Assembly: GCA_000002445.1 (NCBI GenBank)
Contig: CH464491.1
Span: 608,001-672,000, forward strand
Length of the DNA stretch: 64,000 bases
Reading direction: 5' to 3'
Source of the DNA: Trypanosoma brucei
Taxonomy: Eukaryota
In this document: in pieces, positions 22,322-58,711 of the stretch
Numbering within the stretch: the first letter of the stretch is position 1
How the letters are laid out: each line of letters opens with the position of its first letter
Translations under genes and position numbers: made by a program
The notes under the pieces: generated by a model
The model's input: the letters and a program-made list of their open reading frames with translations, nothing else
Told to the model about the DNA's origin: nothing
The model's database searches: none

Positions 22322-23164
22322 CGTGTTGCGTTTTTTTTCTGGTCGAAATAAAGCTACCATCAGAAGGTGAATTTGTTCCTTCCCTTCCACGCACATACCG
22401 ACGGACCGCGGAGGCGGGGAAACATGGCAATGCATTCCCTTCTCAGAAGTTGGTGGTTCTTTATCGGTTTTCCCGGTTTTTGCTTTTGTTTTCCAATTCG
22501 CTGTTAAAAATGAAAATCAGAGTCGAAAGGTGACGAAAAGAAATGTCTGAGGGATGAAACAACTGTTAGCGACGGTAAGCTGATGCTATATTGTGACGAC
22601 TGTGGCTCCGTCACTATTGCGTAGTGTATTTTTTTTATTCCGTTGCTTGCATGTACATGTAATACGGACAGCTTCACAACTCCGAGAGTGATTTGGGGTA
22701 CTCGGAGCCGCAAGTGCACGAGTTAAGTTGATGCCTGTGTGCGTGCAAATGAGTGGGTGCTTGAGGATACTTTATGGTGTGGTTATTTTCCTATTTCCCC
22801 CCCCTTGCTATTTGTGGCCTGCAGTGCCGTCGTACGTCGTATGCGTTCGTAAGCTTCAATTCCTTTGACTTTGTTGGTGGAATTACCCCGCGATAGTCGG
22901 CATCGCTCATGTGAGGTAGAGGGAGGTGGGATTATTATCTTCTGGGGTTCTGAAACCTTCAGCAAGTTTTGCTTGTTCACCCTCTCCCTTCTGCTTGCCA
23001 TTTTCAATTTTTTCCTTTTTTTAGTGCGGTAAGGGCGACCGTTGATGAGTAGGGTTGTTTTTAAAGCAAGGTTTTGAGGATCGATAGGAGAGCAGACTGA
23101 CAAAACAAAAAGGCCGTAGAATTTTCTTTTATTTTTTGCGTAATCGTTCTGAGGCTTGACGATC

Positions 23165-39558: not shown

Positions 39559-41076
39559 ATGAATGTCCTTGAAGATCTTGAAGCTCAGGTAGCAACAGCA
39601 AGACTTAGACTTCATGAGCTGGAGGAGCGGCTGCACGAAGAGCGGAACCGAGTCAACTCGTGTGGAGCTGATGTGCTCACCTCTAGTGGCCCTTCTTCCA
39701 TTGACAATAGCGGAGGCTCTACTGCAGGAGAGACTCCGTCTTTCGTATCGTCGTCTGGTTCTTTGACGAAATCTGACGTTGAGAGGTTTTCCCGACAGAT
39801 TGTGCTGGAAGATATAGGCGCTAAGGGAATGGATCGCATTCGGCGAGGACGTGTTTTACTGGTCGGTGCTGGTGGTTTGGGTAGTACAGCTGCTCTCTAC
39901 CTTGTCGCTGCTGGTGTTGGTGAACTTTGCATTGTTGATTTTGACACTGTAGAGCACAGCAACCTTCATCGGCAGATAATACACAACACAATGCGTGTTG
40001 GTATGTCGAAAGCCGAGAGTGCGGTTCAGTCATGTTTAGCCCTCAACCCTCGAGCCAAGATTCGAGCCATCACGGCCCCCTTCACACCCGCAAACGCAGA
40101 AGAACTTGTGCGTGGTTGTGACGTTGTGGTGGATGGTTCTGACAATGTGGCGACACGTTACTTAATTAACGATGCAGCGGCGCGTTATCGTCGACCATTG
40201 GTGAGTGGCAGTGCGTTGCGATGGGAGGGGCAATTAAGTGTTTACTGCGGCGGCCTAAGCTGCCCCTGCTATCGTTGCCTCTTTCCAACGCCTCCACCAG
40301 CATCGGCTGTGGGAAGCTGTAATGACACTGGAGTGGTTGGCCCCGTGCCCGGTTGTATTGGGTGTTTGCAAGCCACAGAGGCTCTTAAGTTGTTGGCGGG
40401 TGCAGGTGATGTCCTCGAGGGTCGGCTGCTTTTGCTTGACGCCTTGCGGATGCAACTCCGCGTCGTTCGGTTGCGGGGGCGCCAGAAAGACTGCCCGGCT
40501 TGTGGGGAGGCTGCGAAACTTAACGTTGGCAAATCGCTTCAGCAACTTGCCGCGGAGCGACCAGAATATGTTATGCCATCGTGTGCCTCAGGAGCGCTGC
40601 GGAGCGCAAATATGTTGCCTGCTGAGGCCAACGTGGCTCCTTCTGTGTATTTTTCCGTGTTGCAGAAGCTTTTAAGGGGTGAAAGGATGTCGTGGATGAC
40701 CCTTGACGTACGGCCCAAGGAGCAGTACGACATGGCCCATCTGCCTCACAGTGTCTCTCTCCCATTAAAGCAACTGGAGATGTGGAAGCGTGACGGTGTG
40801 CTTCAAAACGAGTGGGAGAAATTTGTCAACAGCGTACCGTGCGCCAGCAGAGGGCCGATGGATGTCTACGTCATTTGCCGTCGTGGTATTTCATCCGTAA
40901 AAGCTATGCAGGTGCTTCTTCCGCTTCAGGAGTGGTGCCCTAAAAGTTGTGGAACGGATGTAGACGGCAAAGCAGCGATACATCAAAATCCCGGCAAACG
41001 GTTTCGCTTCATTAATGTGGATGGGGGGCTGAATCGCTACCACCGTGAAGTAGACAGAAACTTCCCCTTTTACTAA
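39559..41076 (+). CDS. MOCS3: MOCS3/Uba4-type adenylyltransferase and sulfurtransferase (URM1/MOCS2A activating enzyme, ThiF/MoeB fold plus rhodanese domain)
   Basis: The ThiF/MoeB nucleotide-binding region is present (FSRQIVLEDIGAKGMDRIRRGRVLLVGAGGLGSTAALYLVAAGVGELCIVDFDTVEHSNLHRQIIH). Paired CxxC zinc motifs are present (CPCYRC ... CPAC). A C-terminal rhodanese-like domain carries an active-site Cys loop (VYVICRRGISS). Confidence 0.85.
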   Translation: MNVLEDLEAQVATARLRLHELEERLHEERNRVNSCGADVLTSSGPSSIDNSGGSTAGETPSFVSSSGSLTKSDVERFSRQIVLEDIGAKGMDRIRRGRVLLVGAGGLGSTAALYLVAAGVGELCIVDFDTVEHSNLHRQIIHNTMRVGMSKAESAVQSCLALNPRAKIRAITAPFTPANAEELVRGCDVVVDGSDNVATRYLINDAAARYRRPLVSGSALRWEGQLSVYCGGLSCPCYRCLFPTPPPASAVGSCNDTGVVGPVPGCIGCLQATEALKLLAGAGDVLEGRLLLLDALRMQLRVVRLRGRQKDCPACGEAAKLNVGKSLQQLAAERPEYVMPSCASGALRSANMLPAEANVAPSVYFSVLQKLLRGERMSWMTLDVRPKEQYDMAHLPHSVSLPLKQLEMWKRDGVLQNEWEKFVNSVPCASRGPMDVYVICRRGISSVKAMQVLLPLQEWCPKSCGTDVDGKAAIHQNPGKRFRFINVDGGLNRYHREVDRNFPFY

Positions 41077-41537: not shown

Positions 41538-43124
41538 ATGAGCCGTCCGTATACCAAAGGAGGTGGCCCCAACCGAGCCGACAGCCGAAGGCGACGGAAA
41601 GGTGACTACGATCGTGATGTCCTCACCGATCGCGGTGGACATAATAGCAGTTGGAATGCTAAACCTGATAGAAGTCGGCGAGGCAGTCGGGGTGGTTCCG
41701 GTCCGCCGGGAAAAGGGACTGGCGGTAGTGATAATCAAGTCCCGCAGTCAACAATGATGACAACTCTGTTGGACCTTCTCTTTCAGAAGTCTTCCAGTGT
41801 CATCTTCAACCGGGAGTCTGGCATGTTAAATCTTTCAAACTTCAGTCAGTCTCAGGATCTTACTGATGTTCGAAAGAGTGTGGACTTTAACAACGTCACA
41901 TTCTGCCGGAGCCTTGTGAGTGTCATCAAGAGTCACATGGGGTCGATGCTACGGGCTGTTGCTGTCAACGACAATAAGATAACCAAATTGTCTGTTTTCT
42001 TGTCGGCGTTGGTGGAGGCTGACCTTCACATTGGGATCACAGCGTTATCGGCCACCGGGAACACCATTGACGACCTCTCCTTTATTGGACCCCTGAAACG
42101 TTTTGTTAACCTTGGTGAATTAGTTTTAAAGGAGAACCCCGTAACGAGACGGGAGGATTACAATTCAAGTGTGATTCAAAAGGTCAAGTCACTCATGATG
42201 CTTGACGACAAGGTTATTAACCGCGCACCGTTGCGCCTCCCCAACCCAATACCATCAAGCCTTTCGCAACTTCAGTTTCAGGTTTTATATTTCCTTGAGG
42301 CTGACGTTTTCTCCGCTGCGGCGGAAGGGAAATGGGATACCCTGACGGGGGTCTATGCTAAAAATGCCCTCTTTAGTGTTAGTCGTTCAGAGGAACCCAT
42401 TGCGTGCCGCATCCCATTTGATGCGAAGCACAAATCAGACACACTAAACCCAACCCAGCGCAAGGTAATGACAGACGACTTCGTTTTTTTGCGTAAGAAT
42501 GTGCCATGGCGGAATCTTCACGTAGAAATTCATTCTTTACGTTCCATCGCTTGCGGGCAAACGAAGGCTGTGAAAGCCATCAATATCCTCGGAGGGGGTG
42601 AGAGAAAGTTTTTTTCCGTATCGCATGAACTCAATGGTAATGCCAATGTTGTGTTCCTATCGGACAACATGGCGGTACCAACATGTGTCCTAACAATTCA
42701 TGGAAGGTTGTTTTGGCACTGGTCACCAATAGATGGTGGCGAAAAGATATTTGCGCGCGATGATGCCCCTTTTGTGAGTTGTTTTTTCCACCGCACCATG
42801 TCCTTAACGTTGGACCCAAACGGGACGACATGGTCGGTGCACAATGATATGATGTTTCTTCGCCCTGACCGACTCCTCCGGCAGGAAAGTGGTGAAAAGG
42901 CCCTTCCTATGTTCTTTGCGAATGATCCCATGCGAATTGAGGAAATGCGGCGTCGGTACCTTCCACAAGCAAAAACTGATGTGATGAAAACCATTGTGGA
43001 AGCCGTAAGCAGCGATGCCGACGTTGTAGGTTTTATTCAGAATTGTCTTGCGAAACTGCCACCGGATCAACTGGAAATCGCCTTGTCGGCAAGTGATGTC
43101 ATGGCAAACTTACTTGGAGGTTAA
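41538..43124 (+). CDS. MEX67b: NXF/Mex67-family nuclear mRNA export factor paralogue lacking the CCCH finger (Mex67b-like)
   Basis: It is collinear with the ORF at 52345 from the LRR region onwards. Aligned blocks include MLNLSNFSQSQDLTDV versus VLNLTQFKEIPDLTDV, GELVLKENPVTRREDY versus REIVLRDNPIANRSDY, and KSLMMLD versus KKLMPSLIGLD. The N-terminus is basic and RG-rich with no C3H motif. The LRR is followed by an NTF2-like region. Confidence 0.7.
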   Translation: MSRPYTKGGGPNRADSRRRRKGDYDRDVLTDRGGHNSSWNAKPDRSRRGSRGGSGPPGKGTGGSDNQVPQSTMMTTLLDLLFQKSSSVIFNRESGMLNLSNFSQSQDLTDVRKSVDFNNVTFCRSLVSVIKSHMGSMLRAVAVNDNKITKLSVFLSALVEADLHIGITALSATGNTIDDLSFIGPLKRFVNLGELVLKENPVTRREDYNSSVIQKVKSLMMLDDKVINRAPLRLPNPIPSSLSQLQFQVLYFLEADVFSAAAEGKWDTLTGVYAKNALFSVSRSEEPIACRIPFDAKHKSDTLNPTQRKVMTDDFVFLRKNVPWRNLHVEIHSLRSIACGQTKAVKAINILGGGERKFFSVSHELNGNANVVFLSDNMAVPTCVLTIHGRLFWHWSPIDGGEKIFARDDAPFVSCFFHRTMSLTLDPNGTTWSVHNDMMFLRPDRLLRQESGEKALPMFFANDPMRIEEMRRRYLPQAKTDVMKTIVEAVSSDADVVGFIQNCLAKLPPDQLEIALSASDVMANLLGG

Positions 43125-43180
43125 GAAGGGAATATAAAGAAGACATCAAAGTTGTAATACCAGTGCAGTCCTAGTTCGTC

Positions 43181-43210
43181 TGTGTTTGTGTGTGTGTGTG
43201 TGTGTGTGTT
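43181..43210. repeat. (GT)n microsatellite
   Basis: tgtgtttgtgtgtgtgtgtgtgtgtgtgtgtt, just downstream of the Mex67b-like gene. Confidence 0.9.
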
Positions 43211-43820
43211 TTAAGTGGGAGAAGCGACGAGTTGGAAAGAAAATATTAATCCTCCAGAAGCATGGACCCAAATAACTTTTTAAAAGGGCAGGGTACCTTT
43301 TTTTTTTTCGTGTGGTGCTTGAAACTAAAAGGGACCTGTGGCCCAATGTAAGTGCCGGAGAATGAAACAAATGGCGAGGTGACGCGTTTTAACAAACTGA
43401 CCCAGGGAAGAGGCAGTGCCACCTACTCAAGTGTGCATATATGTGCGCTAAGGTAGTTGATGGACAGGAACTAAAAAGAAAAAAAGGGGAAAAAGCAATC
43501 ATGGACTAAGGGGAGTGAAAACTAATAAAACAAAGTTTAAAAAAAATAGAGAGCAGGAAATGAAGTGTTTCCGTTTCTGCATCGCAGGATGTGGAAAAGT
43601 GCGGTTCAACGTGTCGTCCGTTTGGGTTGTCATTATCACGCAGGCACATCTCAATGATATTATCCGTGCACTCATAATGTTCATGTTTCGAGGGAATGCC
43701 ACGACGTACAAGTTGCAGAATTCACTTCGCTTATTTCTACGTCTCATTTCAACGTATTGTTTTAGTGGTAATTGATGCGAGGATTATGACTGTAGCGAAA
43801 CAAATATGCGAATGTTCAAA

Positions 43821-43846
43821 TGTGTGTGTGTGTGTGTGTGTGTGTG
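43821..43846. repeat. (GT)n microsatellite
   Basis: tgtgtgtgtgtgtgtgtgtgtgtgtg. Confidence 0.9.
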
Positions 43847-43905
43847 GGAAGCCTCAACGCTGCCGGCTGGAACTACACGCTGTTTCTCAACCGTATAAGC
43901 CAAAA

Positions 43906-43909
<4 letters not shown>

Positions 43910-43939
<30 letters not shown>
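43910..43939. repeat. (TA)n microsatellite
   Basis: tatatatatatatatatatatatatatatg. Confidence 0.9.
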
Positions 43940-43941
<2 letters not shown>

Positions 43942-45466
43942 TTGCATGTATGCATAAGATTGGAGTGGAGGACAATCAACTCGCTCCCCCCTCATCCTGT
44001 CGTAATTTTTCTCCATTTTCTTCTCCTTACCTGTTTGTGCAGTTGTATCTGGTCATGATTTTTTTCTTTCTCTCCTTCCCCCTTGTTTCTGTTGTTTCAT
44101 TCTGTGTTATTTACCTTCTGCGTTCTCTCTTTTAATTACACTCCAGAACTTGTGATCTTTTCGGCGTGTTATGTTTTGAGGAATCTCATGCACGCGGAGC
44201 GCACCTTCTTAAAATCACATGTGATAATTACTATTACAATTCTGTGGTAGCGGTTATCATTATAATAATAATAATTATTATTGCATGTGCCATCTGGTTT
44301 CAGAGAAGCTTTTAAAGGATATAAATATCCATTCAAGATGCAGCACAAGAGAACTTGTACACAAAGGTGTTAAGACATAGTCATTACATAGGGTAGCCAA
44401 GGTTCCATTCATTAGTTTACAATTTGCATTTTTAAAGGGATACAAGCGCATATTTGGTTTATTTTTGTTTTGTTTTTCACATTAGTTTCACATCTTCACA
44501 TATGTTCCGCTTTCTCTCCCGCCTCTTTTTCTTTCTTTTTCTTTCTTTCTTTTTGCATGCTCTTCTCTCTCCGTCATCTTCACCACTGAATGCTGATTTG
44601 TTATGCGGCTCGTAAGTCTCCCACCCGATTATTGGCTAACGTATAATTTGGAATTTTCACGAATACATGCACTCTTTAAATATGCTGATTTTTTTCTTTT
44701 AAAAAAAACAATAAGAAACAAATAAGTTATAAATAAATATATATATATATATTTATTTATTTATTTAATGTATTTACATATGTTTCGATGTATTTGTTCA
44801 CTTGTTTAAATTTTTTGTTTTTTTTTGTTGTTGTTGGAGGAGGAGGAGGAGGAGGGATGAAAGGGTGACGGATGTTACTTCACTGCGTTTGCCCTTAGGT
44901 CCGTTTTCATTTCAACAAAACAAAAACCTCCTCCCTTCCCTCCCTTCTGAAATGGAAAAAGAATTATGTGAGCGACGAACCAATGGAGGAATGGACGGCC
45001 ATACAAAAAAAAAAACAACACGCGCACAAAAAAAATAATAATAATAAATGGAACACACATGTACGAAGAAATTTAAACTATAACAAAGATACACAGACAC
45101 GAAAAAAAAAATAAATGAAAAAAATACAGAGATCATCAGTGCACACTGAGCGTGGGGGGTGGGGGTGCAAACGATGAATTACATTTAATTTGCACACCAT
45201 TCTCTGTGAGTCTTATGACTTCATGTCATGGCAGCGCCCCCTGAGCATATGGAAGTTTTTGTGTTTTACTTCTCGGAGCCGCTTCAACTGCGCTGGAGTG
45301 TTGTGCTGCTTTTACTGCTACTGCTTTTATAGCTTTTGCAGTATTTACTGTGGTGCTTAGCTCTTTTAGCGCCCCGGTCTAACACAATTCGCATATTCAC
45401 ACGTCAACATATTTCCTCTTTGGAGTACATAAACACATAAACACATACACGCATACACAAATATGC

Positions 45467-45493
45467 ATATATATATATATATATATATATATA
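45467..45493. repeat. (AT)n microsatellite
   Basis: atatatatatatatatatatatatata. Confidence 0.9.
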
Positions 45494-45798
45494 CGCAAGT
45501 ACTCGCATCCATACGCACAGATGCGTGCATGTATTCATGAATAAATGATTATGTGCATGTGCATATTTGGGCGTTTGTTTCCCTTTTTTTTCTCTCTTTC
45601 CACCCTCCTTCCAATCAACACCTCCTGTTTCTTACGGGAGGAGGGAACGGGTCGGAAGCGCTGTGGTTTAGCCGTTTATAATTCCTTCCTTTTTTCTTTC
45701 CCTCTTCTTTGCGCGTCAGCCAGTTGGGAAGAAATATAATGGAAGTGAAGAGTGAAACGGTAATGGAATGCGTATTTCTGCTTGCGTTTATTTATATT

Positions 45799-45800
<2 letters not shown>

Positions 45801-45830
<30 letters not shown>
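45801..45830. repeat. (TA)n microsatellite
   Basis: tatatatatatatatatatatatatatat. Confidence 0.9.
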
Positions 45831-45833
<3 letters not shown>

Positions 45834-47302
45834 GTATTTGTATGTGCTTGTGTGCGTTTATGCCTGGGGGGGGGGGCGCTGTGTTTGCTTTAATTTATAT
45901 TTAATCGCACTAATGAGACAACTCACCTCAGGAAAGCTTGTGCCAACTCTGTTACGTGTGGTAAGACACAACAAAAAAAAGTTTCGTTTCAATATCAAAG
46001 ATAATAAAATAAAATAAAATACAAAAAAAAAGAGAACGATGTAGTTGAAACAAAATCACCAAAAAAAAAATATGTCTGGTCGTTTGTGGGTTTGAGGCAA
46101 GTTATCTCGCTTCTCTCCTTTTCCTCTCTTTTTGGTTTGTCGTTCGCTTATTTCTTCCTTTCGAGAAGGATGGAGGAGAACATTCTTTCACTTAATTATC
46201 CCTCTTTATTTAATTCATTTGCTTCTTCTGTTGACATGGTGTGGTGCGGTGCTTGAGGATGCAACTAATTTATTTATTTATTTTTTAAGTGAGCCTCGCA
46301 CCGGCTGTAATAATGTGAAAAAAAAACACTTTCTCACACCAGTGCGCGCACGAAGAAGCTGAAGCAAACATTATCGCTTGCATTCGTCGGTCATTTTGTG
46401 TGGGTGAAAAGGATGACGGGTGAGAGAAGGGAAAAAAGAAAGGAAAAGAAAGAAGTAAAAGAAAAGAGAGGCGTGTGTGTGTGAGAAAAGGAGAGTTGAA
46501 GAAAGGAGGAGCGGGGAAAAGACATAACATAACAAGACAAAACAAAATAAAAACAAAACAGAAATGAGAATCCGGACGCGGTGACTTCAGAGATTCCGTC
46601 GGTCTATGATTTATTTTTCTCTTTGGGCGATCAGGCGACTGTTGCGTGTGTGGGAGCGCAAACGTATTGCCTCCTTCCAAGTGCAGTTACTCACGTTATT
46701 AGCGGTCGGTTGTTCTTCCCCCCCTTTTTTGGTACTTGTGGGGTTACAATAGAGTTGTTGCTTTCGAACGAAGGAAAGACATGCAAATCTTTTTCAAAAA
46801 AACAAAAGAGAGGAGGAAAATGATGAAATCAACAACATTCCAACAGTAAATGCATTTTAATGAAAATCGAAACCGATGCGTAGTGAAGCGAACTTTTTTT
46901 TTTGTTTTGCTTTATCTTCTTTTTATTTTTAGCTACTAACCAGCGGAGAAGGAACCTTCTTCACCCCTGAAGGTTTGGTTACTTTCTAGGCATCTTTTGT
47001 CCGACGCCCTTCCGAGGCCAATGAATCTACTGAATTGTATACATTTGTAATTATGTATCACCACTGAAGCGTAATCGGTGTGATTTTCTCTATTTTCCAT
47101 TCAACATCTGCTTCATCATATTTATTACATGCACTCTTTCTTTTTTTCTTTTTTTTCCATTGTGGTGTTTTTTTTTTTTCAACTCTTTACAAGCTCACAA
47201 AGAAATAGACGTCGAGACAGGCAGGCATAAGTATATATATATATATATATATTACCTTTTATTTTCTTTTAGTTGTACTCCTCATATTTAGCTTTGGTTG
47301 TG

Positions 47303-48010
47303 ATGTATGCTTCGCATAAAAAGGATATTAACCGCCACAAAAGTTTCCACCCACTGACGTTTCAAAACCTCAGCCGGGTGGAGCGTGGCCTCGAAAAGGA
47401 GGAAGAAAAGAAAAAAGCGAAGGAGCAACGCAATGCTGAACTTCTTCATGATCAGGAACAGCGTCGCTACGATGATCTCGTTATTTCCGCCTCCGGTGAT
47501 TCCATAGCCGCACGTGTTGCGAAGTTTAGACAAGTGGAAAATGTTTTTGCGGCAGAGGAGGATAAGCCCGCATTGCAGCCGGAGGCGGTTGCCGTGATGG
47601 GGCAGAAAACCAGTGCACTCACATTCCAAAAAGATCCATTGGAAGCGAAAAAATTAACGCAAAAACGTCAACGTGATGATGTTACCACGAAAAATGAGAA
47701 AGGCGGTAGCGAGGGGCAGAGTTTTGGCGGGGCTGGTAGAAAGGAAGAGGAGAGAAAAGTGAGTGGGAGTTTAGTGACGGGTTTCATAACAAAATCTGAT
47801 GCGGCTCAGTTGCGAAAAGAACTTGACAAACTTCAAAAAGAACGGCACGACCCCCTGCGGAGAGTTGAGCAGTTTCAGAATCGCACGGTTGCGGCTGAGG
47901 CCAAACGGCGGGCTCTTGAGGCACGTGCCGCATCAAACAATAGTCGCGGGGATTTGCAGAAAGATATCATACACAGTCGCCTGCAAGAACTGCTGGATAT
48001 GAAAAAGTGA
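47303..48010 (+). CDS. hypothetical charged coiled-coil protein (~235 aa)
   Basis: The track ORF starts at TTG 47273; the first ATG is at 47303 (MYASHKKD...). The sequence is lysine/glutamate-rich (EKEEEKKKAKEQRNAELLHDQEQRRYDDL, RKELDKLQKERHDPLRRVEQFQNRTVAAEAKRRALEARA). No domain recognised. Confidence 0.5.
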   Translation: MYASHKKDINRHKSFHPLTFQNLSRVERGLEKEEEKKKAKEQRNAELLHDQEQRRYDDLVISASGDSIAARVAKFRQVENVFAAEEDKPALQPEAVAVMGQKTSALTFQKDPLEAKKLTQKRQRDDVTTKNEKGGSEGQSFGGAGRKEEERKVSGSLVTGFITKSDAAQLRKELDKLQKERHDPLRRVEQFQNRTVAAEAKRRALEARAASNNSRGDLQKDIIHSRLQELLDMKK

Positions 48011-48608
48011 AGGGCACGAGGAGGGGGGGGGGGAAACGTGCAGTGGTAGTAGTCGTGTCATTTTTGGTAGTATCGATTAGGTTTCCGAGATGTATACATA
48101 TTTTCAGGTATGCACTCATATGTTGAAATGCCGCGTAAACCACATGTGCATTCCTTGCTGGAGCTTCAATATCTAGCGAAGGAGCTGTGTGGTATGGAGA
48201 CACATTTTGATTCCTTCACCACACACGTAGCGTGCTGCACAAAGTCGCCGGTGGTGTATGAGCTACGATTCCTTTCTCAGGGAAGTCGGACCATGAGACA
48301 CGAGTGGAGTTACTTATGATTTTGCTTGTATTTCCATTAGCCTCTAGTTTCCCACCTCTGTTTGGAATGTCAAAAACCAACTTCTGGTATGCTTTCCCCC
48401 CTCTCTTCCACACCTTCTCACGTGATCATTATCTTTCTTTATTTGCTCTCCCCCTTTTCTGTGCTCGCCAGAGGTTAAACTCTCTTTTAAGAAAGTGATC
48501 GGTTTTGTTTGTTGTTGTTTTCGAAGAAGGAAACAAAAAAAAAAAAAGAACGATCGGCGGTGGTATTGACGGTTGCACAGACAAAAAGGAAATAAAATAA
48601 ATAGCACC

Positions 48609-50483
48609 ATGCCAACCCTCGCTGTTGTGCGTGATTATCTCTTTGATTTTATCGGGAAAAGCTACACGGAGGACCAATTCGAAGACATATGCTTTCAATT
48701 TGGTGTGGAGCTCGATGATGTGACAAGTGAGCGCGAGATGTTCCGCCGTGAGCAAGGCGAAGCCGTTGCAGCCAAGGGAGAGGAGCTTTCTGATGCCGTC
48801 ATCTACAAGATTGATACACCAGCCAATCGCTACGACCTTCTTTGTGCTGAGGGAATGGGTACTGCGATGAAGGTATTTCTCGGCATGACCCCTGCGCCTC
48901 GGTTCCAATTACTCAACCGTGCAAATCCACTCTACAAAGTAACGGTGGAAAAGTCCGTGCGCAATGTACGGGATTACATTGTTTGTGCCGTGTTACGAAA
49001 CGTTCGTCTTGACAAGCGCAGCTACCGCAGTTTTATTGATTTTCAGGACAAACTCCACTTGGGTCTTGCACGACGCCGTGCGCTTGCTTCTGTTGGGACG
49101 CACGACTTGGATAAGATTAATCAGAATGAGTTCCTTTACGCCGCCCGGCCGAAGGAGAGCATACGGTTTGTTCCACTCAATCAACAGGAACGGGTGCTGG
49201 ATTGTCGGGGCAATGGCCTCGCAGAGTTTTATAAGGACGACCGACACATCTCTAAGTTTATTCCGCTTATCTCTGAATTCTCCCATTACCCCGTGGTGCT
49301 GGACGGCAAGGGTGAAAACATTCTCTCCCTTCCACCCATTATCAACTCGGACTACTCGTGCATCAGTGCAAACACCAGGAACATCTTTATCGAGTGCACT
49401 GCACCAGATCATCACAAGGCGAGTGTTTTAGTGAACCAACTCGTTTGCGCCTTCTCAACTTATTGCGAGAAGCCCTTTACCGTGGAGGCGGTGCGTGTTG
49501 TGTACGATGAACCCACTCCTGATGGCACGAAGGAGGAAGTGACTCCCAACTTGGATCCTCGACTAGTCTCCGTAGAGCAGTCGAAGGTTGAGAAACTCAT
49601 TGGCATTAAACTTAACTCAGCCAATCATATGGGTGAACTTCTGGAGCGTATGCTGCACCATGTAGCAAAGGTGGAGGACAGCACCGTAACAGTAGAAGTC
49701 CCTCCAACGCGACCTGATGTATTGGGACCAACGGACCTTATGGAAGATGTTGCGGTGGCCTACGGTTACGATAATATTACCCACAAAGAGTGCTTGACAT
49801 TTGGTGACGTGGCGCAGCAACCACTGAGTAAACTCTCGCATCTTATTCGTATCGAGATGGCTAACGCCGGTTATATGGAGCTCTTGACCTTTTCGCTTTG
49901 CTCCCGCGAGGAGGGATTTACTCGTCTAAATCGCGTGGATGATGATGTGGCCGTACATATCGCAAACCCCAAAACTATGGAGTTCCAAATATGCCGCCCC
50001 TCACTCATGCCGGGCATCCTAAAGACACTTAATGCCAATAAATCGCACCCACTTCCCCTTCGATTCTTTGAGTGCGCTGATATAGTTCTCTTGGATAATG
50101 AAAAGAACTTTCCTCCTGTCATCACCCCAAAACTAGAGTACCCCAACTGCGGGGCGCGCAATCAACGGCATCTTGCCGCCCTACATTGCTGTAGTGAGTC
50201 TAGCAGTTTTGAAGATATACACGGACTTGTGGAATTTGTCATGGCTAAACTTGGTGTTGTGCGGAAAGTGGGGGAAGAGGTTGTGGATGGTGATTCATAC
50301 ACGCTGGAGAGGAGCAGTGATGGTGCCTTCTTTCCTGGTCGTTGCATGGATGTTTTTCTGCACCGCAGTGGGCAGAAGGTGTGTATTGGAGGCTTTGGTG
50401 TTGTTCACCCGAACACGCTGAAGGCGTATGACATCCCCTTTCCATGCTCATACATGGAGCTGAATGTTCAGTTTGCCCAGTAG
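48609..50483 (+). CDS. FARSB: phenylalanyl-tRNA synthetase beta subunit (cytosolic PheRS beta)
   Basis: The track ORF starts at TTG 48573; the ATG at 48609 gives MPTLAVVRDYLFDFIGKSYTEDQFEDICFQFGVELDDVTSEREMFRREQG...YKIDTPANRYDLLCAEG. This is collinear with the N-terminus of eukaryotic FARSB as I remember it ([43 protein letters not shown]...YKIDVPANRYDLLC). A B5-like and a C-terminal catalytic-like region follow. Confidence 0.88.
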   Translation: MPTLAVVRDYLFDFIGKSYTEDQFEDICFQFGVELDDVTSEREMFRREQGEAVAAKGEELSDAVIYKIDTPANRYDLLCAEGMGTAMKVFLGMTPAPRFQLLNRANPLYKVTVEKSVRNVRDYIVCAVLRNVRLDKRSYRSFIDFQDKLHLGLARRRALASVGTHDLDKINQNEFLYAARPKESIRFVPLNQQERVLDCRGNGLAEFYKDDRHISKFIPLISEFSHYPVVLDGKGENILSLPPIINSDYSCISANTRNIFIECTAPDHHKASVLVNQLVCAFSTYCEKPFTVEAVRVVYDEPTPDGTKEEVTPNLDPRLVSVEQSKVEKLIGIKLNSANHMGELLERMLHHVAKVEDSTVTVEVPPTRPDVLGPTDLMEDVAVAYGYDNITHKECLTFGDVAQQPLSKLSHLIRIEMANAGYMELLTFSLCSREEGFTRLNRVDDDVAVHIANPKTMEFQICRPSLMPGILKTLNANKSHPLPLRFFECADIVLLDNEKNFPPVITPKLEYPNCGARNQRHLAALHCCSESSSFEDIHGLVEFVMAKLGVVRKVGEEVVDGDSYTLERSSDGAFFPGRCMDVFLHRSGQKVCIGGFGVVHPNTLKAYDIPFPCSYMELNVQFAQ

Positions 50484-51638
50484 ACGCGTGCGTGCGTAAT
50501 TCACTCGCGTTATGTTCGCTTCGGTTCCGACGAAATTTCTGTCAGTTTGTTTGGTTGATGGTGAGGTGAGAGGTGGGATGAGTGTACCGAATGGAAGGTA
50601 AATAAAGTAAATGAATGGAGCAGACCATGGAAAACTTTCTGAGCGGCATTGCATGCTTGTTGCTCATTTTCTCCCACTCACCAGTCGCATCACCGTTATT
50701 TCTCATTATCACTCGCGATTTTGTATGATTCTTATTAACATTTTTCTGCGGAAGCGCAGACCTTTTACATACTGTGAATGAGTCAGTAGGGATTTGCATT
50801 GCGAACTCGCATGGCGCGGAGATGAGAAATGAATCACATCTTAAATATATAATGGCGAAGGATTATTTGGATGAATTTCGTTCTTTAGGCGGAGTGGGGG
50901 AAGCTTATTTGTCGTTGAAGTAAGGAAGCGGTGACGGTGAATGAACCTCAGGGCAATACCAGAAACATTCATTAATGTCTTTTCATGCATTTGCATCCCT
51001 TCAAATTATCCTCCTCCCTGTCGTTATTTGAGATCCTTTATTTGACACACTGCGTGCCAATGGTGGCTGTAGATACATCCATCTCGTAGTGAGGAGAACG
51101 CGATATTTAAAAAACTCTTTCGACGTAGCTGCAAATGCAGCGAGTAGTCAGGTGAGTGAAACATGTGCGTGAAAGACAGCGAGAGGCTCCAGGAGGTTAA
51201 ACAAGACCAAAAAAGAAAGGAATAGAGAAGGAAGTTTAAAGGAAAATAAAACAATGTGGATAACGGAATTTAAGGCTGATTATAGTGGTGTCTGCACATG
51301 AGGATTAAGGGCGGAGGCAAAGCGTGGGACTTGTGTTTTTGCAATGTTCCACTCACCTCTTTCACTTACCTATCCATTTCTCTTTTTTCATTTTTATTTC
51401 TTAAGCAGAGGATATAAATGTGAGGCCCACTACCAAATCACTTCCAACCACCTAAACCGTATACGACACAGAAGTTCACAATTTGTGGTTGGCGCTTTGA
51501 TCTGAAAGAAGGCGATTTATTATTGCCGTGGGGTGTGAGGGAATCGAGAGAAAAGGAAAAGAAAAAGCAGGAAAAGGAGGAGGAGAAATAGAAGGAGAAG
51601 GAGGGAGGGATTGAGTCTCTCCTTTAAGTGTGTAAGAG

Positions 51639-51790
51639 ACTCTTCCCTCCCTTTTTTGATAACTATCACCGTATTATTCTCTGCTGCCTTTTGCTTTCAT
51701 ATTTAACGGTAAATGAATATTCCCCATTCTCTCCTCCGTCTTTGGATTCATTGTACTTTTTTTTAAAAAATTTCCCCCGCGACCGCGTGG
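51639..51790 (+). promoter_or_regulatory. polypyrimidine-rich region upstream of the CCCH-Mex67 gene (candidate splice-acceptor/polyadenylation coupling region)
   Basis: ctcttccctcccttttttgataactatcaccgtattattctctgctgccttttgctttcatatt ... ttttttttaaaaaatttcccccgcgaccg. Confidence 0.35.
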
Positions 51791-52344
51791 TGCACGCCCG
51801 TACGCAACCCATTACTGTTGTTGGTGCTGTAATTTACATACCTACATGTGGATAACCAACACACGTATACTCGTATATATATATACATACATACATACCA
51901 GCGGTAACGGCAACAACGTGTGAAATCGTTACATTGTTAACGGCGTGTGCGTAGCGGCAGACGCAGTGCAGGAAGAGAGAAGAAAAAAAGGGGGAAAGGA
52001 AAAGGAAAGAAAAGGAAAAGAAAAGAAAAAGCAGCCTCCATTTCGAATCGGTGGAGCAACCGAAGTGTGAGTGCTGAAACGCTTTGCTACGGGCAAAGTG
52101 GAAGAAGAGAAGGAAGACAGATATAAATTAAAAGAAAAAAAAGGGAAGACACGTGCGTACATTTGTATTGTGAGGAGGGGAGGTACAAAAGAATAAGAAA
52201 TATAATAATCGAAAGGAAATAAATTGAGGATCTAAAGACAAAGATCTACTCAAGAAATCTTCTCTAAAAGAAAAAAGAAGAATAGAGAAAAAAGGAAAAG
52301 AATCCAAGGCGTCAATTAATAATAAGGTGAGTTTAAAGGGTTAA

Positions 52345-54072
52345 ATGCCCAACCCATACAGGAAAAACAAGGATACATCGCGTATACCGTGTGTCTACTT
52401 TAAAAGAGGGTCATGCGCGAACAAGCACTGCCCATTTCTTCATGTGCGTGGCGGTGAAAAAGTCGGACACGAACCTGGGAAAGCACCAGGGGATGTGGGG
52501 ACAAACCTTCTTTGTACGATGTTGAAGTTGGTGTTTGAGAAACAGCAGCAGCGGGTGTATAACGCGGAAACAGGGGTCTTGAACCTGACGCAGTTTAAGG
52601 AAATTCCTGACCTCACGGATGTGGCGGGATCCATCAACTTTAACACACAGGCTTTCTGCCAGGCATTGTGTTCGACAATAAAGTCGCTTATTGTGCCTCC
52701 TCCATCAGCAATTCAACTGAAAGGCAATGGCATATTGTCGGTGTCACATCTAGCGATGCAGTTGGAAAAGGCAGACCTTCATCTGACGCTTCGTGCCATT
52801 TCATTAGAAGCCAACCTAATCAAGTCGGTTGAGTCATTGCAAGAGTTGAAGAAATTCACCAACTTGCGGGAGATTGTACTGAGAGACAATCCTATCGCAA
52901 ATCGGAGCGACTATCGGACAACTATTAAGAAATTGATGCCGTCGTTAATTGGTTTAGATGGAGAGTCCATATGTGTGCCCCCTTTAAGTTTACCGTGGCC
53001 TCAGTTCTCTCCGACGGGATACAGTGAGGCGCAGAAGCATGTGCTGCAGTTCATACAATGCGGGTTGTTAAACCCACTGGAAGGCGACGGTGCTTCCGGA
53101 GTTGCACACGGTGTAGACGCTGTTTCGGACTTGTACGCGGCAAATGCGGTTTTGACCCTCTCCCTCTCTTCGCCAGAAGTTGCTGTAAGCACGCCCATGC
53201 GCACGATGAACGGTGCGGCGGGTGTGCCGCAACAGCGGAACGTAATCAGGGATATTGTGAGTCTTCGGTTAAAACAAACTGAAAGTAATCACAACCTTCT
53301 GCACGGTGTAAAGTCGACTGTTGTTGCGCTTGGTCGGACGAAGGTGTGTTCTCAGATGGAGCACTGGTTGTACCCAAAGACCTTTAGGGTTCATCATTAC
53401 CTCCATAGCAGCGCTAGCACCGTCTTTCTTGACAATTCGTACCTCACAGGCCCGTCGCCCACAGCGATGAAAGTACCCGTGACAATAGTGACACTCCATG
53501 GCACCATGACGTGGAACAACACCGGTGTACCGGGTGATGCGACAACTATTGGCCCAATGACCATTCGGCGCAACTTCACTCGTGTGTTAAGTGTTACACA
53601 AGGGGATGCGGGACGCTGGCTAATCACTAATGACATGGTGTCGTTGTATTTGACGCCGAGTGGGTCATCTGCATCGTCGAAAAGTGGCAACGGAGTGCCT
53701 GAAACGACTCAACTGAGCGAGTGCCGCATTCTGCTCGACCCACGCAGCGACCGTAGCCGTGCGGAGGTACTCAGCCGAAAGAAGGACGTACCGGTAGAGG
53801 TGATTATGGCATTGTGTCAACACGTTGGTAACGATGCGGAGTTATTTACCGTGTTGGATGATATCCGCGGCGTGCCACTCAGTGCCTTTGAACACTGTGC
53901 CAACCTAGCAGGGGAGAATATCATGGAAAGCATTCAGATGTGTCGTTTAGTGAATCTTTTCGGGATGGCACCACAAAATGCATTGGAGATGCTTAGGCAC
54001 AATAACGGTAACTGGAGTGATACTGTTGCTGCGGTTGCTGCTACCGCGCCTGTGGCGGCAGTCCCGCAGTGA
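52345..54072 (+). CDS. MEX67: NXF/Mex67-family nuclear mRNA export factor with an N-terminal CCCH zinc finger
   Basis: An N-terminal C3H motif is present: CVYFKRGSCANKHCPFLH. It is followed by an LRR region (LNLTQFKEIPDLTDV, LRAISLEANLIKSVESLQELKKFTNLREIVLRDNPI), an NTF2-like middle domain and a C-terminal UBA-like tail. It is paralogous to the ORF at 41538. The kinetoplastid-specific CCCH on Mex67 is from memory. Confidence 0.8.
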   Translation: MPNPYRKNKDTSRIPCVYFKRGSCANKHCPFLHVRGGEKVGHEPGKAPGDVGTNLLCTMLKLVFEKQQQRVYNAETGVLNLTQFKEIPDLTDVAGSINFNTQAFCQALCSTIKSLIVPPPSAIQLKGNGILSVSHLAMQLEKADLHLTLRAISLEANLIKSVESLQELKKFTNLREIVLRDNPIANRSDYRTTIKKLMPSLIGLDGESICVPPLSLPWPQFSPTGYSEAQKHVLQFIQCGLLNPLEGDGASGVAHGVDAVSDLYAANAVLTLSLSSPEVAVSTPMRTMNGAAGVPQQRNVIRDIVSLRLKQTESNHNLLHGVKSTVVALGRTKVCSQMEHWLYPKTFRVHHYLHSSASTVFLDNSYLTGPSPTAMKVPVTIVTLHGTMTWNNTGVPGDATTIGPMTIRRNFTRVLSVTQGDAGRWLITNDMVSLYLTPSGSSASSKSGNGVPETTQLSECRILLDPRSDRSRAEVLSRKKDVPVEVIMALCQHVGNDAELFTVLDDIRGVPLSAFEHCANLAGENIMESIQMCRLVNLFGMAPQNALEMLRHNNGNWSDTVAAVAATAPVAAVPQ

Positions 54073-55969: not shown

Positions 55970-58711
55970 ATGTCTCTTAGCGCCTTACGGTCCAAACGCA
56001 CCGTAAATGATATTTGGCCTGTCCGTTACAAACGTTTTTTTGTATTGACGGACCCTCAGAATATCATAGGAGAAACCACCGACGGACTGGCAACACTCAC
56101 AACCATTTCTTATCTACTGGAAAGGGAAGCTGCTGTTGTGGTTGCCTCATCCTTTGGCGACTTGAAGGGCATTCCTCTCAGTTTTTCAAGGGGACAGCGT
56201 GAGGAGGCGATTGAAATATTTCGAACTGAGGGTGGCATGGGATACACCAACTACTTCAACTCGCTTCCCATAAACCTCAAGGCAGAGGTTCTCAAGGTCG
56301 CAAACGGATGCGAAACACCCGTGGATTCCGTAACCCTATCTCCTGTGGAAGTAAATGGTGCATTTGCAGCGCTTTCCATACGTCAAAAGGCTGCTGCTCT
56401 TCACAATGTGTTTCCACGAGTGGAATTTTCTCAGTGCTCGACTTATGCCTTCGTGCGTGAACTCACCAATCGTTTCCCCACTGTCCCTGTGAAATTCTCT
56501 CCCGATCCGCTGAATGCCCCGATCAGTCAGCTGAAGCCGGGGGAAATACTGGTGCTTGAAAATTTAAAGTTTTACCAAAATGAAATTTCACCGAACCATG
56601 AAGAGCGTGTGGCGATGGCTGAGGTTTTGGCGTCCTACTGTGATTACTGTGTTAATGAATCCTTCGCAACAGTGTGTGCCGTCCACGCCAGTAACACCGA
56701 GTTACCCAAGATCCTCTACCATGGTGCTGCTGGTTTTTCCATGGAAAAGGAACTCGCCTTCTTCCTCAGCTTCCTCGCCCACCCTCCTCGTCCCATTGTT
56801 GTTGTTGTGGCCGGAAGGCAGTCCTCAAAAAAACTCCGTATGATTCGCAGTTTGGTTGGAAAAGTTGATAAGATTCTTGTGGCGGGTGCGTTGATCATGC
56901 CTTTCCTAGCAGCTAAGGGCCTTACAACTGACAAGTCTTTCAACAACTCCGAACGGGTGGAACGAAGGCGGCTGAATGAAGCCGCCGAAGTGGAGGAGCT
57001 GTCGGTACCTTGTGTTGGGTTTGCTCAAGAAATTATCACATTGTGTGAGAAAAACGGCGTTGAGTTGGTTTTCCCCGTGGACCACGTCGTGACAAGGAGG
57101 ATCACAAAAGCTACGGAGGACTCTGCGGCTATTGTTGAGTCAATTGCGGTCCCTTCGGATGTCTATGCTGTGGATTGCAGCGCGAACACGATCGCACTTT
57201 TTACGAAGTGTATTCGCCCTTGTCAGTGTGTCTTCTGGACTGGAACCTTTGGCTGCACGAGAATGGGCTATTCCGAGGGAACATATGCCTTCGCTAGGGC
57301 TCTGGCGCAACAAGGGAAGCTTTCTATTGTCAGTGGCAACAGTACGGCTTGTGTGGTACGGCAACTAGGGCTAACTTCCCAGTTCTCGCACATCTCAAGT
57401 GGCGGCAGCACGTGCCTGGATGCGTTACAGGGGCACCACCTTCCTGGTGTAGAGATGCTTTCTGATATTCCTGTGGCAGTGGACGTCAGGAGTTGCATAC
57501 TAGCAGACGATCTTCTCCGAAGCTTACCCCTCTTCTCGAACTGCTCTTCACACCAACTTAAGGCGGTAGCGCAGAAGTTTGTGCGGCGAGTCCATGCCTG
57601 TGGTGATTACCTGACGTATTATGGGGACAAGCACGCATGCATGTGGGTTGTTGCGAGCGGTGGGCTGGTGGCCCGGAGTGGTGACACCACACTAACTCTC
57701 CCTTCGCGTTATATCGGACGGGGACAGACGGTTGGTATGTACGGTTTCATCACTCAAAGCTTTGCAACAGATACAATTCAAGCGGCCGAAGACGAAACGG
57801 TCACATACCAGCTGACATTCTCCTCCCTCCAAGATCTCTTCAACGAGCAATCGGACCTTGCAGCGCAGCTCCTCCAAAACGTGTCAGAAACATTGCGGGT
57901 CATGGCAATTGAGGAGTATCGTGAACAGAGCTCTATTATGAACGTGCTGAGGCGTGCGGCTTTGTGCTCTCGGTTTCCCACATTCCTTGCTATACCAAAG
58001 GATTGGGGTTTCATGGAAGACGTCATTCAGGATATCATTTCGGGCACCGTGCTGAGTGGAATAACTCAAATATGCACGGGGCAAACGGCACTTTCCTCGC
58101 CTCGGACGTTTTCATTGGGTCTGGGTTCATCTACTTCCAGAGGTCACATGGTCCACTGCCTTTGCCGAGTAGTATTACGCGATTTGCTGTACCACAAGCT
58201 TATCGAGTACGGCATAATGCCTGCCACCTGCATTTCCTCCATTATTCTTTCCCCGTTTCGACTGAGGGCAATGGGTATGATGTGGAGCGATGTTACGTGC
58301 AAAGCCATGTTGGATGAAGCGCTGCTGTTGGCTGTTGAAATGTGCTCCCCTATTGCTGCGCACGGTACATTTCTTGTGGTGCAGCGCCGAATCGAAGTAT
58401 TACTGAGGCGGAAATGCGCCACCATCGTCAAGTTCTTCCTCACTGCACTGGTTGACGTCGGGTTTGGGTTCGTGTTGTTTCCGCTGACGTTTCACCGCCG
58501 TACAAGCGAAGCCATATCGCTTCCTGACCTTTTCCGTTCCAGTGTTTTTAAGCGTCACCAATGGAAAGTAGTGCTGCTTCTGGTATTACGGTGTGTGGTG
58601 CATGTGCTTTTGAATGGCGTCCGCAGAGTTCATAGGTTTTGGGTGATTAAGAGAAAATCCGAAAGTGGCTGCAACCTGACACCACAGCGGTTGCCCCGAG
58701 TAACAAAATAG
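55970..58711 (+). CDS. phosphoglycerate kinase-like protein (probable pseudoenzyme) with a cNMP-binding-like domain and C-terminal transmembrane segments
   Basis: The first ~430 aa are collinear with PGK: ILVLENLKFYQNE versus ENLRFHxEE; VNESFATVCAVHASN versus VNDAFGTAHRAHSS; AAGFSMEKELAFFLSFLAHPPRPIVVVVAG versus AGGFLMKKELxYFxKALExPERPFLAILGG; HISSGGSTCLDALQG versus HVSTGGGASLELLEG. Substrate-binding basic residues are replaced (SHLGRP becomes SSFGDL; the Arg of TAHRAH is lost). A CAP-family-like segment follows (LFSNCSSHQLKAVAQKFVRRVHACGDYLTYYGDKHACMWVVASGGLVAR). The C-terminus has two hydrophobic helices (LTALVDVGFGFVLFPLTF and WKVVLLLVLRCVVHVLL). Confidence 0.78.
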   Translation: MSLSALRSKRTVNDIWPVRYKRFFVLTDPQNIIGETTDGLATLTTISYLLEREAAVVVASSFGDLKGIPLSFSRGQREEAIEIFRTEGGMGYTNYFNSLPINLKAEVLKVANGCETPVDSVTLSPVEVNGAFAALSIRQKAAALHNVFPRVEFSQCSTYAFVRELTNRFPTVPVKFSPDPLNAPISQLKPGEILVLENLKFYQNEISPNHEERVAMAEVLASYCDYCVNESFATVCAVHASNTELPKILYHGAAGFSMEKELAFFLSFLAHPPRPIVVVVAGRQSSKKLRMIRSLVGKVDKILVAGALIMPFLAAKGLTTDKSFNNSERVERRRLNEAAEVEELSVPCVGFAQEIITLCEKNGVELVFPVDHVVTRRITKATEDSAAIVESIAVPSDVYAVDCSANTIALFTKCIRPCQCVFWTGTFGCTRMGYSEGTYAFARALAQQGKLSIVSGNSTACVVRQLGLTSQFSHISSGGSTCLDALQGHHLPGVEMLSDIPVAVDVRSCILADDLLRSLPLFSNCSSHQLKAVAQKFVRRVHACGDYLTYYGDKHACMWVVASGGLVARSGDTTLTLPSRYIGRGQTVGMYGFITQSFATDTIQAAEDETVTYQLTFSSLQDLFNEQSDLAAQLLQNVSETLRVMAIEEYREQSSIMNVLRRAALCSRFPTFLAIPKDWGFMEDVIQDIISGTVLSGITQICTGQTALSSPRTFSLGLGSSTSRGHMVHCLCRVVLRDLLYHKLIEYGIMPATCISSIILSPFRLRAMGMMWSDVTCKAMLDEALLLAVEMCSPIAAHGTFLVVQRRIEVLLRRKCATIVKFFLTALVDVGFGFVLFPLTFHRRTSEAISLPDLFRSSVFKRHQWKVVLLLVLRCVVHVLLNGVRRVHRFWVIKRKSESGCNLTPQRLPRVTK

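What the first reader, a model, noticed from the sequence alone, without database searches (positions are those of the whole stretch)
41538..54072. Two Mex67/NXF paralogues ~9 kb apart; only the downstream copy carries the N-terminal CCCH zinc finger
The ORFs at 41538 and 52345 are collinear through the LRR and NTF2-like regions (for example NLSNFSQSQDLTDV versus NLTQFKEIPDLTDV). They are clearly diverged, so this is an old duplication. The downstream copy opens with a C3H finger (CVYFKRGSCANKHCPFLH) that metazoan and yeast Mex67/NXF1 lack. The upstream copy instead has a basic RG-rich N-terminus. Two genes lie between them (FARSB and a hypothetical). The two N-termini could mean different RNA or adaptor specificity.
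Basis: partly seen in the sequence, partly recalled or inferred. Interest (0 to 1): 0.5.

Follow-up and report, generated by a model that had tools for sequence, protein, structure and literature searches.

The report
Known trypanosome Mex67 / Mex67b gene pair

Summary
Two intact same-strand ORFs (41538-43124, 528 aa; 52345-54072, 575 aa) are 30% identical over about 517 aa (E = 2e-54). [quoted passage not shown] Only the downstream ORF has a CCCH motif (C16-x7-C24-x4-C29-x3-H33). The upstream ORF has a disordered Gly/Arg-rich N-terminus instead. PheRS-beta and a hypothetical gene lie between them.

The sequences are exact matches to T. brucei-group proteins. The pair is TbMex67b (Tb927.11.2340) and TbMex67 (Tb927.11.2370). 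The finger was reported in 2010 and shown to be essential in 2013.

- Both paralogues share a conserved N-terminal cap, M-x-x-P-Y-x-K.
- The order finger-less gene then finger gene, directly adjacent, recurs in two deep-branching metagenomic relatives.
- A euglenid outgroup has no finger, so the finger is derived.
- The GenBank TREU927 Mex67 model starts at Met59 and omits the finger.

Novelty: already known. Interest: low.

The parts
41538..43124 (+). TbMex67b (Tb927.11.2340 in the literature), 528 aa. Layout: N-terminal cap MSRPYTK, disordered Gly/Arg-rich tract (aa ~8-67), LRR (~70-230), NTF2-like domain (~244-443), C-terminal UBA-like helical bundle (~464-527).
41538..41753 (+). Mex67b N-terminal region (aa 1-72): conserved M-S-R-P-Y-x-K cap followed by a basic Gly/Arg-rich low-complexity tract. 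No zinc finger.
   Evidence: Composition and RGG counts. pLDDT below 50. The same design is present in all Mex67b orthologues.
52345..54072 (+). TbMex67 (Tb927.11.2370; older name Tb11.22.0004), 575 aa. Layout: cap MPNPYRK, CCCH finger, LRR, NTF2-like domain (226-438), C-terminal helical region that runs ~45 aa beyond the end of Mex67b.
   Evidence: ORF. Exact match to T. equiperdum 'mRNA export factor MEX67' SCU67838.1, and aa 59-575 match TREU927 EAN79209.1 exactly. Pfam NTF2_MEX67 at 3.4e-109. C-terminal alignment.
52390..52443 (+). CCCH zinc-finger motif C16-x7-C24-x4-C29-x3-H33 (CVYFKRGSCANKHCPFLH).
   Evidence: Pattern scan. The same C-x7-C-x4-C-x3-H spacing is found in all 18 full-length Mex67 orthologues listed, and a finger in 27 representatives. 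Pfam zf-C3H1 and zf-CCCH_2 hits are weak and below threshold. Published as essential for function (Dostalova 2013, cited).
47303..48010 (+). Intervening hypothetical gene. The first ATG is at 47303; the ORF lister opens it at a TTG at 47273.
   Evidence: ORF. No Pfam family, even at E up to 10, beyond coiled-coil noise.
48609..50483 (+). Intervening phenylalanyl-tRNA synthetase beta subunit (FARSB). The ORF lister opens it at a TTG at 48573; the first Met gives MPTLAVV...
   Evidence: Pfam PhetRS_B1 at 1.2e-29, B3_4, B5 at 1.5e-18 and tRNA_synthFbeta at 2.5e-40.

Best explanation
The window comes from chromosome 11 of a Trypanosoma brucei-group genome. The two ORFs are the published paralogous mRNA export receptors TbMex67b (upstream) and TbMex67 (downstream), which arose by an ancient tandem duplication in the kinetoplastid lineage. 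Both keep the NXF core. The LRR is followed by an NTF2-like domain, which pairs with TbMtr2, and by a UBA-like C-terminus, which docks on FG-nucleoporins at the nuclear pore. They differ in the N-terminal cargo or adaptor module. TbMex67 has a single CCCH finger that is essential for its export function and probably contacts RNA directly. TbMex67b has a disordered Arg/Gly-rich tract of the kind that binds RNA or adaptors non-specifically. Published work shows that the two are non-redundant, carry different mRNA cohorts and have different partners (Sub2/HYP/PABP2 with Mex67b). Shown here: paralogy, domain layout, the restriction of the finger to one clade, conserved gene order, and sequence identity to named T. 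brucei proteins. Taken from papers: Mtr2 binding, pore localisation, essentiality, cargo differences. Inferred: that the N-terminal difference causes the cargo and partner differences, and that the RGG tract binds RNA.
Confidence: 0.97

Rival explanations
1. The upstream copy is a decaying or non-functional duplicate (pseudogene) of Mex67 that has lost its finger.
For: It lacks the finger, it scores much lower on the Pfam NTF2_MEX67 model (51 bits against 364), and it is about 45 aa shorter at the C-terminus than Mex67.
Against: The ORF is intact at 528 aa. Full-length orthologues at 50-56% identity exist in T. vivax, T. cruzi, T. theileri and T. grayi. The clade is conserved with 100% bootstrap support. 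The model is confident across the LRR, NTF2-like and C-terminal domains. Published data show that it binds Mtr2, localises to the pore, is required for fitness in bloodstream forms, and halves the growth rate of procyclic forms when knocked out.
Confidence: 0.01
2. The similarity is only a shared LRR, and the two are unrelated LRR proteins rather than NXF paralogues.
For: LRR domains recur widely, and many weak hits in the profile search are LRR-only proteins (hits covering only profile positions ~130-240).
Against: The pairwise alignment covers the LRR, the NTF2-like domain and the C-terminal helices. Both proteins pass the NTF2_MEX67 gathering threshold. The fold search returns two-domain NXF1 and Mex67 structures.
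Confidence: 0.01
3. The ancestral kinetoplastid Mex67 already had the finger, and Mex67b lost it secondarily, replacing it with an RGG tract. The alternative is that the finger was gained on the Mex67 branch after the duplication.
For: Both paralogues keep the same N-terminal cap M-x-x-P-Y-x-K, so the extreme N-terminus was part of the duplicated unit. Several finger-less deep proteins (P0072, P0049, P0057 and others) nest among basal finger-type lineages, separating in only 4 of 100 bootstraps, which would require losses.
Against: Outgroups lack the finger: the euglenid Ploeotia vitrea (P0093/P0181) and the deep relatives P0087 and P0089, and also yeast and metazoa. Rooted on the euglenid, the clade holding all finger proteins excludes the Mex67b clade in 93 of 100 replicates and the deep outgroups in 90 of 100. 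One gain is more parsimonious than a gain followed by a loss. The trees are neighbour-joining trees on unnamed metagenomic sequences, so the question stays open.
Confidence: 0.3

Closest known systems
TbMex67 (Tb927.11.2370) and TbMex67b (Tb927.11.2340) of Trypanosoma brucei (Kramer 2010, PMC2873481; Dostalova 2013; Obado 2026, PMC12774637)
   Same: These are the same genes. The protein sequences match T. brucei-group entries exactly. The layout matches too: finger only in Mex67, LRR + NTF2-like + UBA-like in both, and neighbouring positions on the chromosome.
   Different: Nothing of substance differs. The paper states that the genes are '5 kb apart', whereas the window shows 9.2 kb from stop to start. 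The paper does not mention the RGG tract, the shared PY cap or the shorter Mex67b C-terminus.
Human NXF1/TAP and yeast Mex67 (with NXT1/Mtr2)
   Different: Opisthokont proteins have no CCCH finger. The RRM-like domain that precedes the LRR in NXF1 was not detected here. Trypanosome Mex67 proteins work with Ran rather than Dbp5 (PMC12774637 abstract). The kinetoplastid cap sits at residues 4-5 and does not fit the canonical R/H/K-x2-5-P-Y pattern.
TbMex67L (Tb927.10.2060), the third trypanosome paralogue
   Same: It has an LRR and an NTF2-like domain and binds Mtr2.
   Different: It lies on another chromosome and is not in this window. It is much larger (108 kDa), lacks both the UBA domain and the finger, is nucleolar, and acts in 60S ribosome biogenesis rather than mRNA export.

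Membership tests
Mex67/NXF nuclear RNA export factor family (both ORFs) | Leucine-rich repeat domain N-terminal to the NTF2-like domain | tested here: met
   Mex67b: Pfam LRR_9 at 9e-10 (38.8 bits, cut-off 30.5). Mex67: LRR_NXF1-5 at 3.9e-07 (30.2 bits, just under the 30.5 cut-off). The Mex67b model aligns to the TAP and Chaetomium Mex67 LRR structures (1fo1, 4wp6; TM by target 0.7).
Mex67/NXF nuclear RNA export factor family (both ORFs) | NTF2-like domain of the Mex67/NXF type | tested here: met
   PF23056 NTF2_MEX67 scores 51 bits (Mex67b) and 364 bits (Mex67) against a cut-off of 28. Foldseek hits are 4wyk and 4wwu at E about 4e-16 and 1jn5 at 1e-5.
Mex67/NXF nuclear RNA export factor family (both ORFs) | C-terminal UBA-like (TAP-C) domain | tested here: inconclusive
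   [not shown]
Mex67/NXF nuclear RNA export factor family (both ORFs) | Heterodimer with Mtr2/NXT1 and binding to nuclear pore FG-nucleoporins | not testable with these tools
   Affinity capture in PMC12774637 reports this for both proteins. It was not tested here.
CCCH (C3H1) zinc finger (downstream ORF only) | C-x4-15-C-x4-6-C-x3-H motif with conserved ligand residues | tested here: met
   C16-x7-C24-x4-C29-x3-H33 fits the definition quoted in PMC2873481. The three Cys and the His, with the same spacing, are present in all 18 full-length Mex67 orthologues. A finger is present in 27 more distant representatives, a few of them with x5 in the second spacer.
CCCH (C3H1) zinc finger (downstream ORF only) | Passes a curated Pfam CCCH model | tested here: not met
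   zf-C3H1 scores 14.2 bits (cut-off 20.9) and zf-CCCH_2 scores 13.9 bits (cut-off 25.8). Orthologues give similar sub-threshold hits to several CCCH models. The x4 spacing is non-conventional. Zinc binding and RNA binding were not tested here.
PY-NLS (considered for the shared N-terminal cap) | R/H/K-x2-5-P-Y preceded by a basic or hydrophobic epitope | tested here: not met
   The cap is M-[SP]-x-P-Y-x-K at residues 1-7. There is no room for an upstream epitope, and where an Arg is present it lies directly next to the Pro. The motif definition is taken from PMC2408616 and PMC3226482. The resemblance is a lead only.

The most novel reading that the evidence does not exclude
The most novel reading left open concerns history and small features, not the finding itself. 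On this reading, Mex67b rather than the 'canonical' TbMex67 preserves the ancestral N-terminal design: a conserved M-x-x-P-Y-x-K cap followed by a basic RGG tract, comparable to the basic tail of NXF1. The CCCH finger would then be a later insertion behind that cap in one copy of an originally adjacent tandem pair. The universally conserved cap, which none of the papers read here mentions, would be a functional signal shared by both export receptors, for example for nuclear import or N-terminal modification.
Probability: 0.35. Interest if true: 0.3.

Novelty: already known. Interest (0 to 1): 0.1.

Why it matters
The pair matters biologically. Trypanosomes control gene expression almost entirely after transcription, and they have split mRNA export between two receptors with different N-terminal RNA or adaptor modules, one of them a finger found in no host NXF1. 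That significance has already been recognised and tested experimentally (2010, 2013, 2022 preprint, 2026 paper). This report therefore closes the finding as correct but known. It also records a few small unreported details: the shared cap, the deep conservation of the finger-less then finger gene order, the shorter Mex67b C-terminus, and a truncated GenBank gene model.

Tried and rejected

2. Pfam, PDB sequence-profile and hhalign searches for TAP-C in either C-terminus gave nothing usable. Foldseek on the fragment also gave nothing (best E = 3.1).

3. I looked for a cryptic or frame-shifted finger upstream of Mex67b and found none in any frame. An in-frame stop lies 3 codons upstream of the ATG.

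4. The first tree script timed out. A bootstrap run with Kimura distances produced undefined values and is disregarded. It was redone with Poisson distances.

5. An Rfam scan of the whole window found no RNA family. The 4.1 kb gene-free stretch after Mex67b holds only dinucleotide repeats and short chance ORFs.

6. A taxon look-up of ten deep relatives named only one, Ploeotia vitrea, so most deep branches stay anonymous and the question of finger gain versus loss could not be settled.

7. Dostalova et al. 2013 is not held in the library. Its results are cited second-hand from PMC12774637 and PMC8311971.
Full report

Yes. The ORF listing returns intact + strand ORFs at 41538-43124 (528 aa) and 52345-54072 (575 aa). 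BLASTP between them gives 30% identity and 47% positives over about 517 columns, E = 2e-54. The alignment runs from just before the LRR to within one residue of the upstream protein's C-terminus.

Pfam places NTF2_MEX67 (PF23056) in both proteins, at 51 and 364 bits against a cut-off of 28, together with LRR families. The motif CVYFKRGSCANKHCPFLH (C16-x7-C24-x4-C29-x3-H33) is present only in the downstream ORF. The upstream ORF has no CCCH pattern, and neither does any frame of its upstream DNA. Both ATGs sit 0-3 codons after an in-frame stop, so no N-terminal extension is hidden.

The first 72 residues of the upstream protein hold 14 Gly and 12 Arg, carry a net charge of +9 and contain two RGG motifs. 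AlphaFold predicts them as disordered, with pLDDT below 50 for aa 1-67. The gap between the genes is 9,220 bp. It contains PheRS beta, with four Pfam domains, and a 235-245 aa ORF with no family match. All large ORFs in the window lie on the + strand, as expected for a trypanosomatid polycistronic unit.

**2. What is it?**

An exact-sequence look-up identifies the 528-aa protein as XP_828318.1 of T. brucei brucei TREU927, which is also identical in T. equiperdum. The 575-aa protein is 'mRNA export factor MEX67' of T. equiperdum. The TREU927 GenBank model of the latter (EAN79209.1, 517 aa) equals residues 59-575 of the window ORF exactly. The window is therefore from a T. brucei-group chromosome 11.

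The literature names these genes. Tb927.11.2370 is TbMex67 and Tb927.11.2340 is TbMex67b (PMC12774637). That paper states that TbMex67 has a CCCH finger unique to trypanosome orthologues and essential for export. [quoted passage not shown] It also reports that the two genes are neighbours on chromosome 11, consistent with a lineage-specific duplication, and that both occur in all kinetoplastids including Bodo saltans.

The finger, and its absence from yeast and mammalian proteins, was first reported in 2010 (PMC2873481). Its essentiality is credited to Dostalova et al. 2013. I could not read that paper directly.

**3. Independent checks of family membership**

An AlphaFold model of the upstream protein (mean pLDDT 78.9) shows four parts: a disordered N-terminus, an LRR, an NTF2-like alpha/beta domain and a C-terminal bundle of short helices. 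Foldseek against the PDB returns NXF1:NXT1 (4wyk) and yeast Mex67:Mtr2 (4wwu) at E about 4e-16. TAP LRR structures and NTF2-like domain structures follow.

**4. How it most likely works**

*Taken from the paper.* Both proteins bind Mtr2 and the nuclear pore. Depleting either one in bloodstream forms causes loss of fitness and nuclear or perinuclear poly(A) accumulation. A Mex67b knockout in procyclic forms halves the growth rate. The two proteins carry different mRNA cohorts, and Mex67b preferentially co-purifies Sub2, HYP and PABP2. T. cruzi Mex67B behaves in the same way with Sub2.

*Inferred.* The shared core provides pore passage, while the different N-termini select cargo or adaptors. The finger is proposed in the literature to contact RNA directly. 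The RGG tract would act as a non-specific RNA or adaptor-binding tail. No experiment I found tests this causal link.

**5. Things added here**

(a) *A shared N-terminal cap.* Both paralogue families open with the same cap, M-[SP]-x-P-Y-x-K. P4 and Y5 are invariant across the 24 aligned sequences. The cap persists in most of the 61 representatives found at E of 1e-30 or better by a profile search of 1.84 billion proteins. The NAR paper does not mention the cap, an RGG tract or an NLS. Human NXF1 carries a PY-type NLS in its basic N-terminal tail (PMC3226482). The kinetoplastid cap does not fit the canonical R/H/K-x2-5-P-Y pattern, so this is only a lead.

(b) *Conserved gene order.* In two deep-branching metagenomic relatives, a finger-less cap-plus-basic paralogue is followed 120-200 bp later, on the same strand, by a finger-bearing paralogue. 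The loci are L001 (JGI 3300075940) and L002 (ENA ERZ21831265). A few genes further on lies a PGK + cNMP-binding gene, like the one at window 55970. The order 'b then finger' is therefore old, and direct adjacency is probably ancestral. In T. brucei two genes now lie between the pair.

(c) *Polarity of the finger.*
- The only named outgroup, the euglenid Ploeotia vitrea, lacks the finger, as do the deep relatives P0087 and P0089.
- I built a neighbour-joining tree without the N-terminal region and rooted it on the euglenid pair. The clade containing all finger proteins excludes the Mex67b clade in 93 of 100 bootstraps and the deep outgroups in 90 of 100.
- The finger is therefore derived.
- Six finger-less deep proteins mix with the basal finger lineages, separating in only 4 of 100 replicates. 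A single clean gain after the duplication is not established.

(d) *The C-terminus.*
- Trypanosomatid Mex67b ends about 45 aa before Mex67, before the deep finger-less partners and before the outgroups.
- Sequence profiles do not detect TAP-C in it. For a while this suggested that the domain had been lost.
- A model of the last 80 aa (pLDDT 79.8) gives nothing with Foldseek.
- The published 'UBA retained' statement therefore stands. The role of the extra Mex67 tail is unknown.

**6. Comparison with what is known, and novelty**

This is the known TbMex67b/TbMex67 locus itself, not a relative of it. The additions in section 5 are minor refinements.

**7. Verdict**

Novelty: already known. Interest: 0.1. 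The most novel reading still open is that Mex67b keeps the ancestral N-terminal design and that the shared PY cap is a functional signal. I give that a probability of about 0.35 and only modest interest.

Noticed in passing
window 52345-52521 (Mex67 aa 1-59): The GenBank models of Mex67 in T. brucei TREU927 (EAN79209.1/XP_828321.1) and T. b. gambiense (CBH17145.1), both 517 aa, start at the internal Met59 and so omit the CCCH finger. The TREU927 model is identical to aa 59-575 of the window ORF. T. rangeli SC58 (P0027, 517 aa) starts at the equivalent internal Met (MLKLVFEK), as its N-terminus shows. Anyone screening these records for CCCH proteins would miss Mex67.
   Followed up: yes
window 41538-41558 and 52345-52365; also L001 and L002: Both paralogues, and nearly all full-length relatives down to deep unnamed lineages, begin with a conserved cap M-[SP]-x-P-Y-x-K, with P4 and Y5 invariant in the 24-sequence alignment. 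None of the papers read mentions it. It may be an import or N-terminal processing signal, but it does not fit the canonical PY-NLS pattern.
   Followed up: partly
window 43125-52344: PMC12774637 says the two genes are '5 kb apart', whereas the window shows 9,220 bp from stop to start. In two deep-branching metagenomic relatives (L001 3130-6344; L002 10001-13095) the paralogues are directly adjacent, 120-200 bp apart, with no PheRS-beta or hypothetical gene between them.
   Followed up: partly
[not shown]
   Followed up: partly
window 55970-58711; L001 12964-14614; L002 17048-21217: A 913-aa gene combines a phosphoglycerate-kinase domain (Pfam PGK, 6.7e-79) with a weak, sub-threshold Pfam match to a cyclic-nucleotide-binding domain (22.2 bits, cut-off 27.5) and a long C-terminal extension. 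It lies just downstream of Mex67. PGK-family genes, with a cNMP_binding hit recorded in L001 and only a faint one in L002, lie downstream of the Mex67 pair in both metagenomic relatives, so this synteny is old.
   Followed up: no
window 24362-26754 (inside ORF 23156-27475): A near-perfect tandem array of 46.9 copies of a 51-bp unit (98% matches) encodes a 17-aa repeat inside a 1,439-aa ORF with no Pfam family. It explains the local GC spike (0.56), the AT skew and the long open frames on both strands.
   Followed up: partly
window 43125-47272: There is an unusually long (4.1 kb) AT-rich stretch (GC 0.36) with no gene between Mex67b and the next ORF. It contains (TG)n, (AT)n and (TA)n runs, only short chance ORFs and no Rfam match. 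It is presumably a long 3' UTR or intergenic region.
   Followed up: partly
window 39559-41076: The gene immediately upstream of Mex67b encodes a ThiF-family domain plus a rhodanese domain (Pfam 6e-76 and 4e-05). This is the layout of Uba4/MOCS3-type sulfur-carrier activating enzymes.
   Followed up: no
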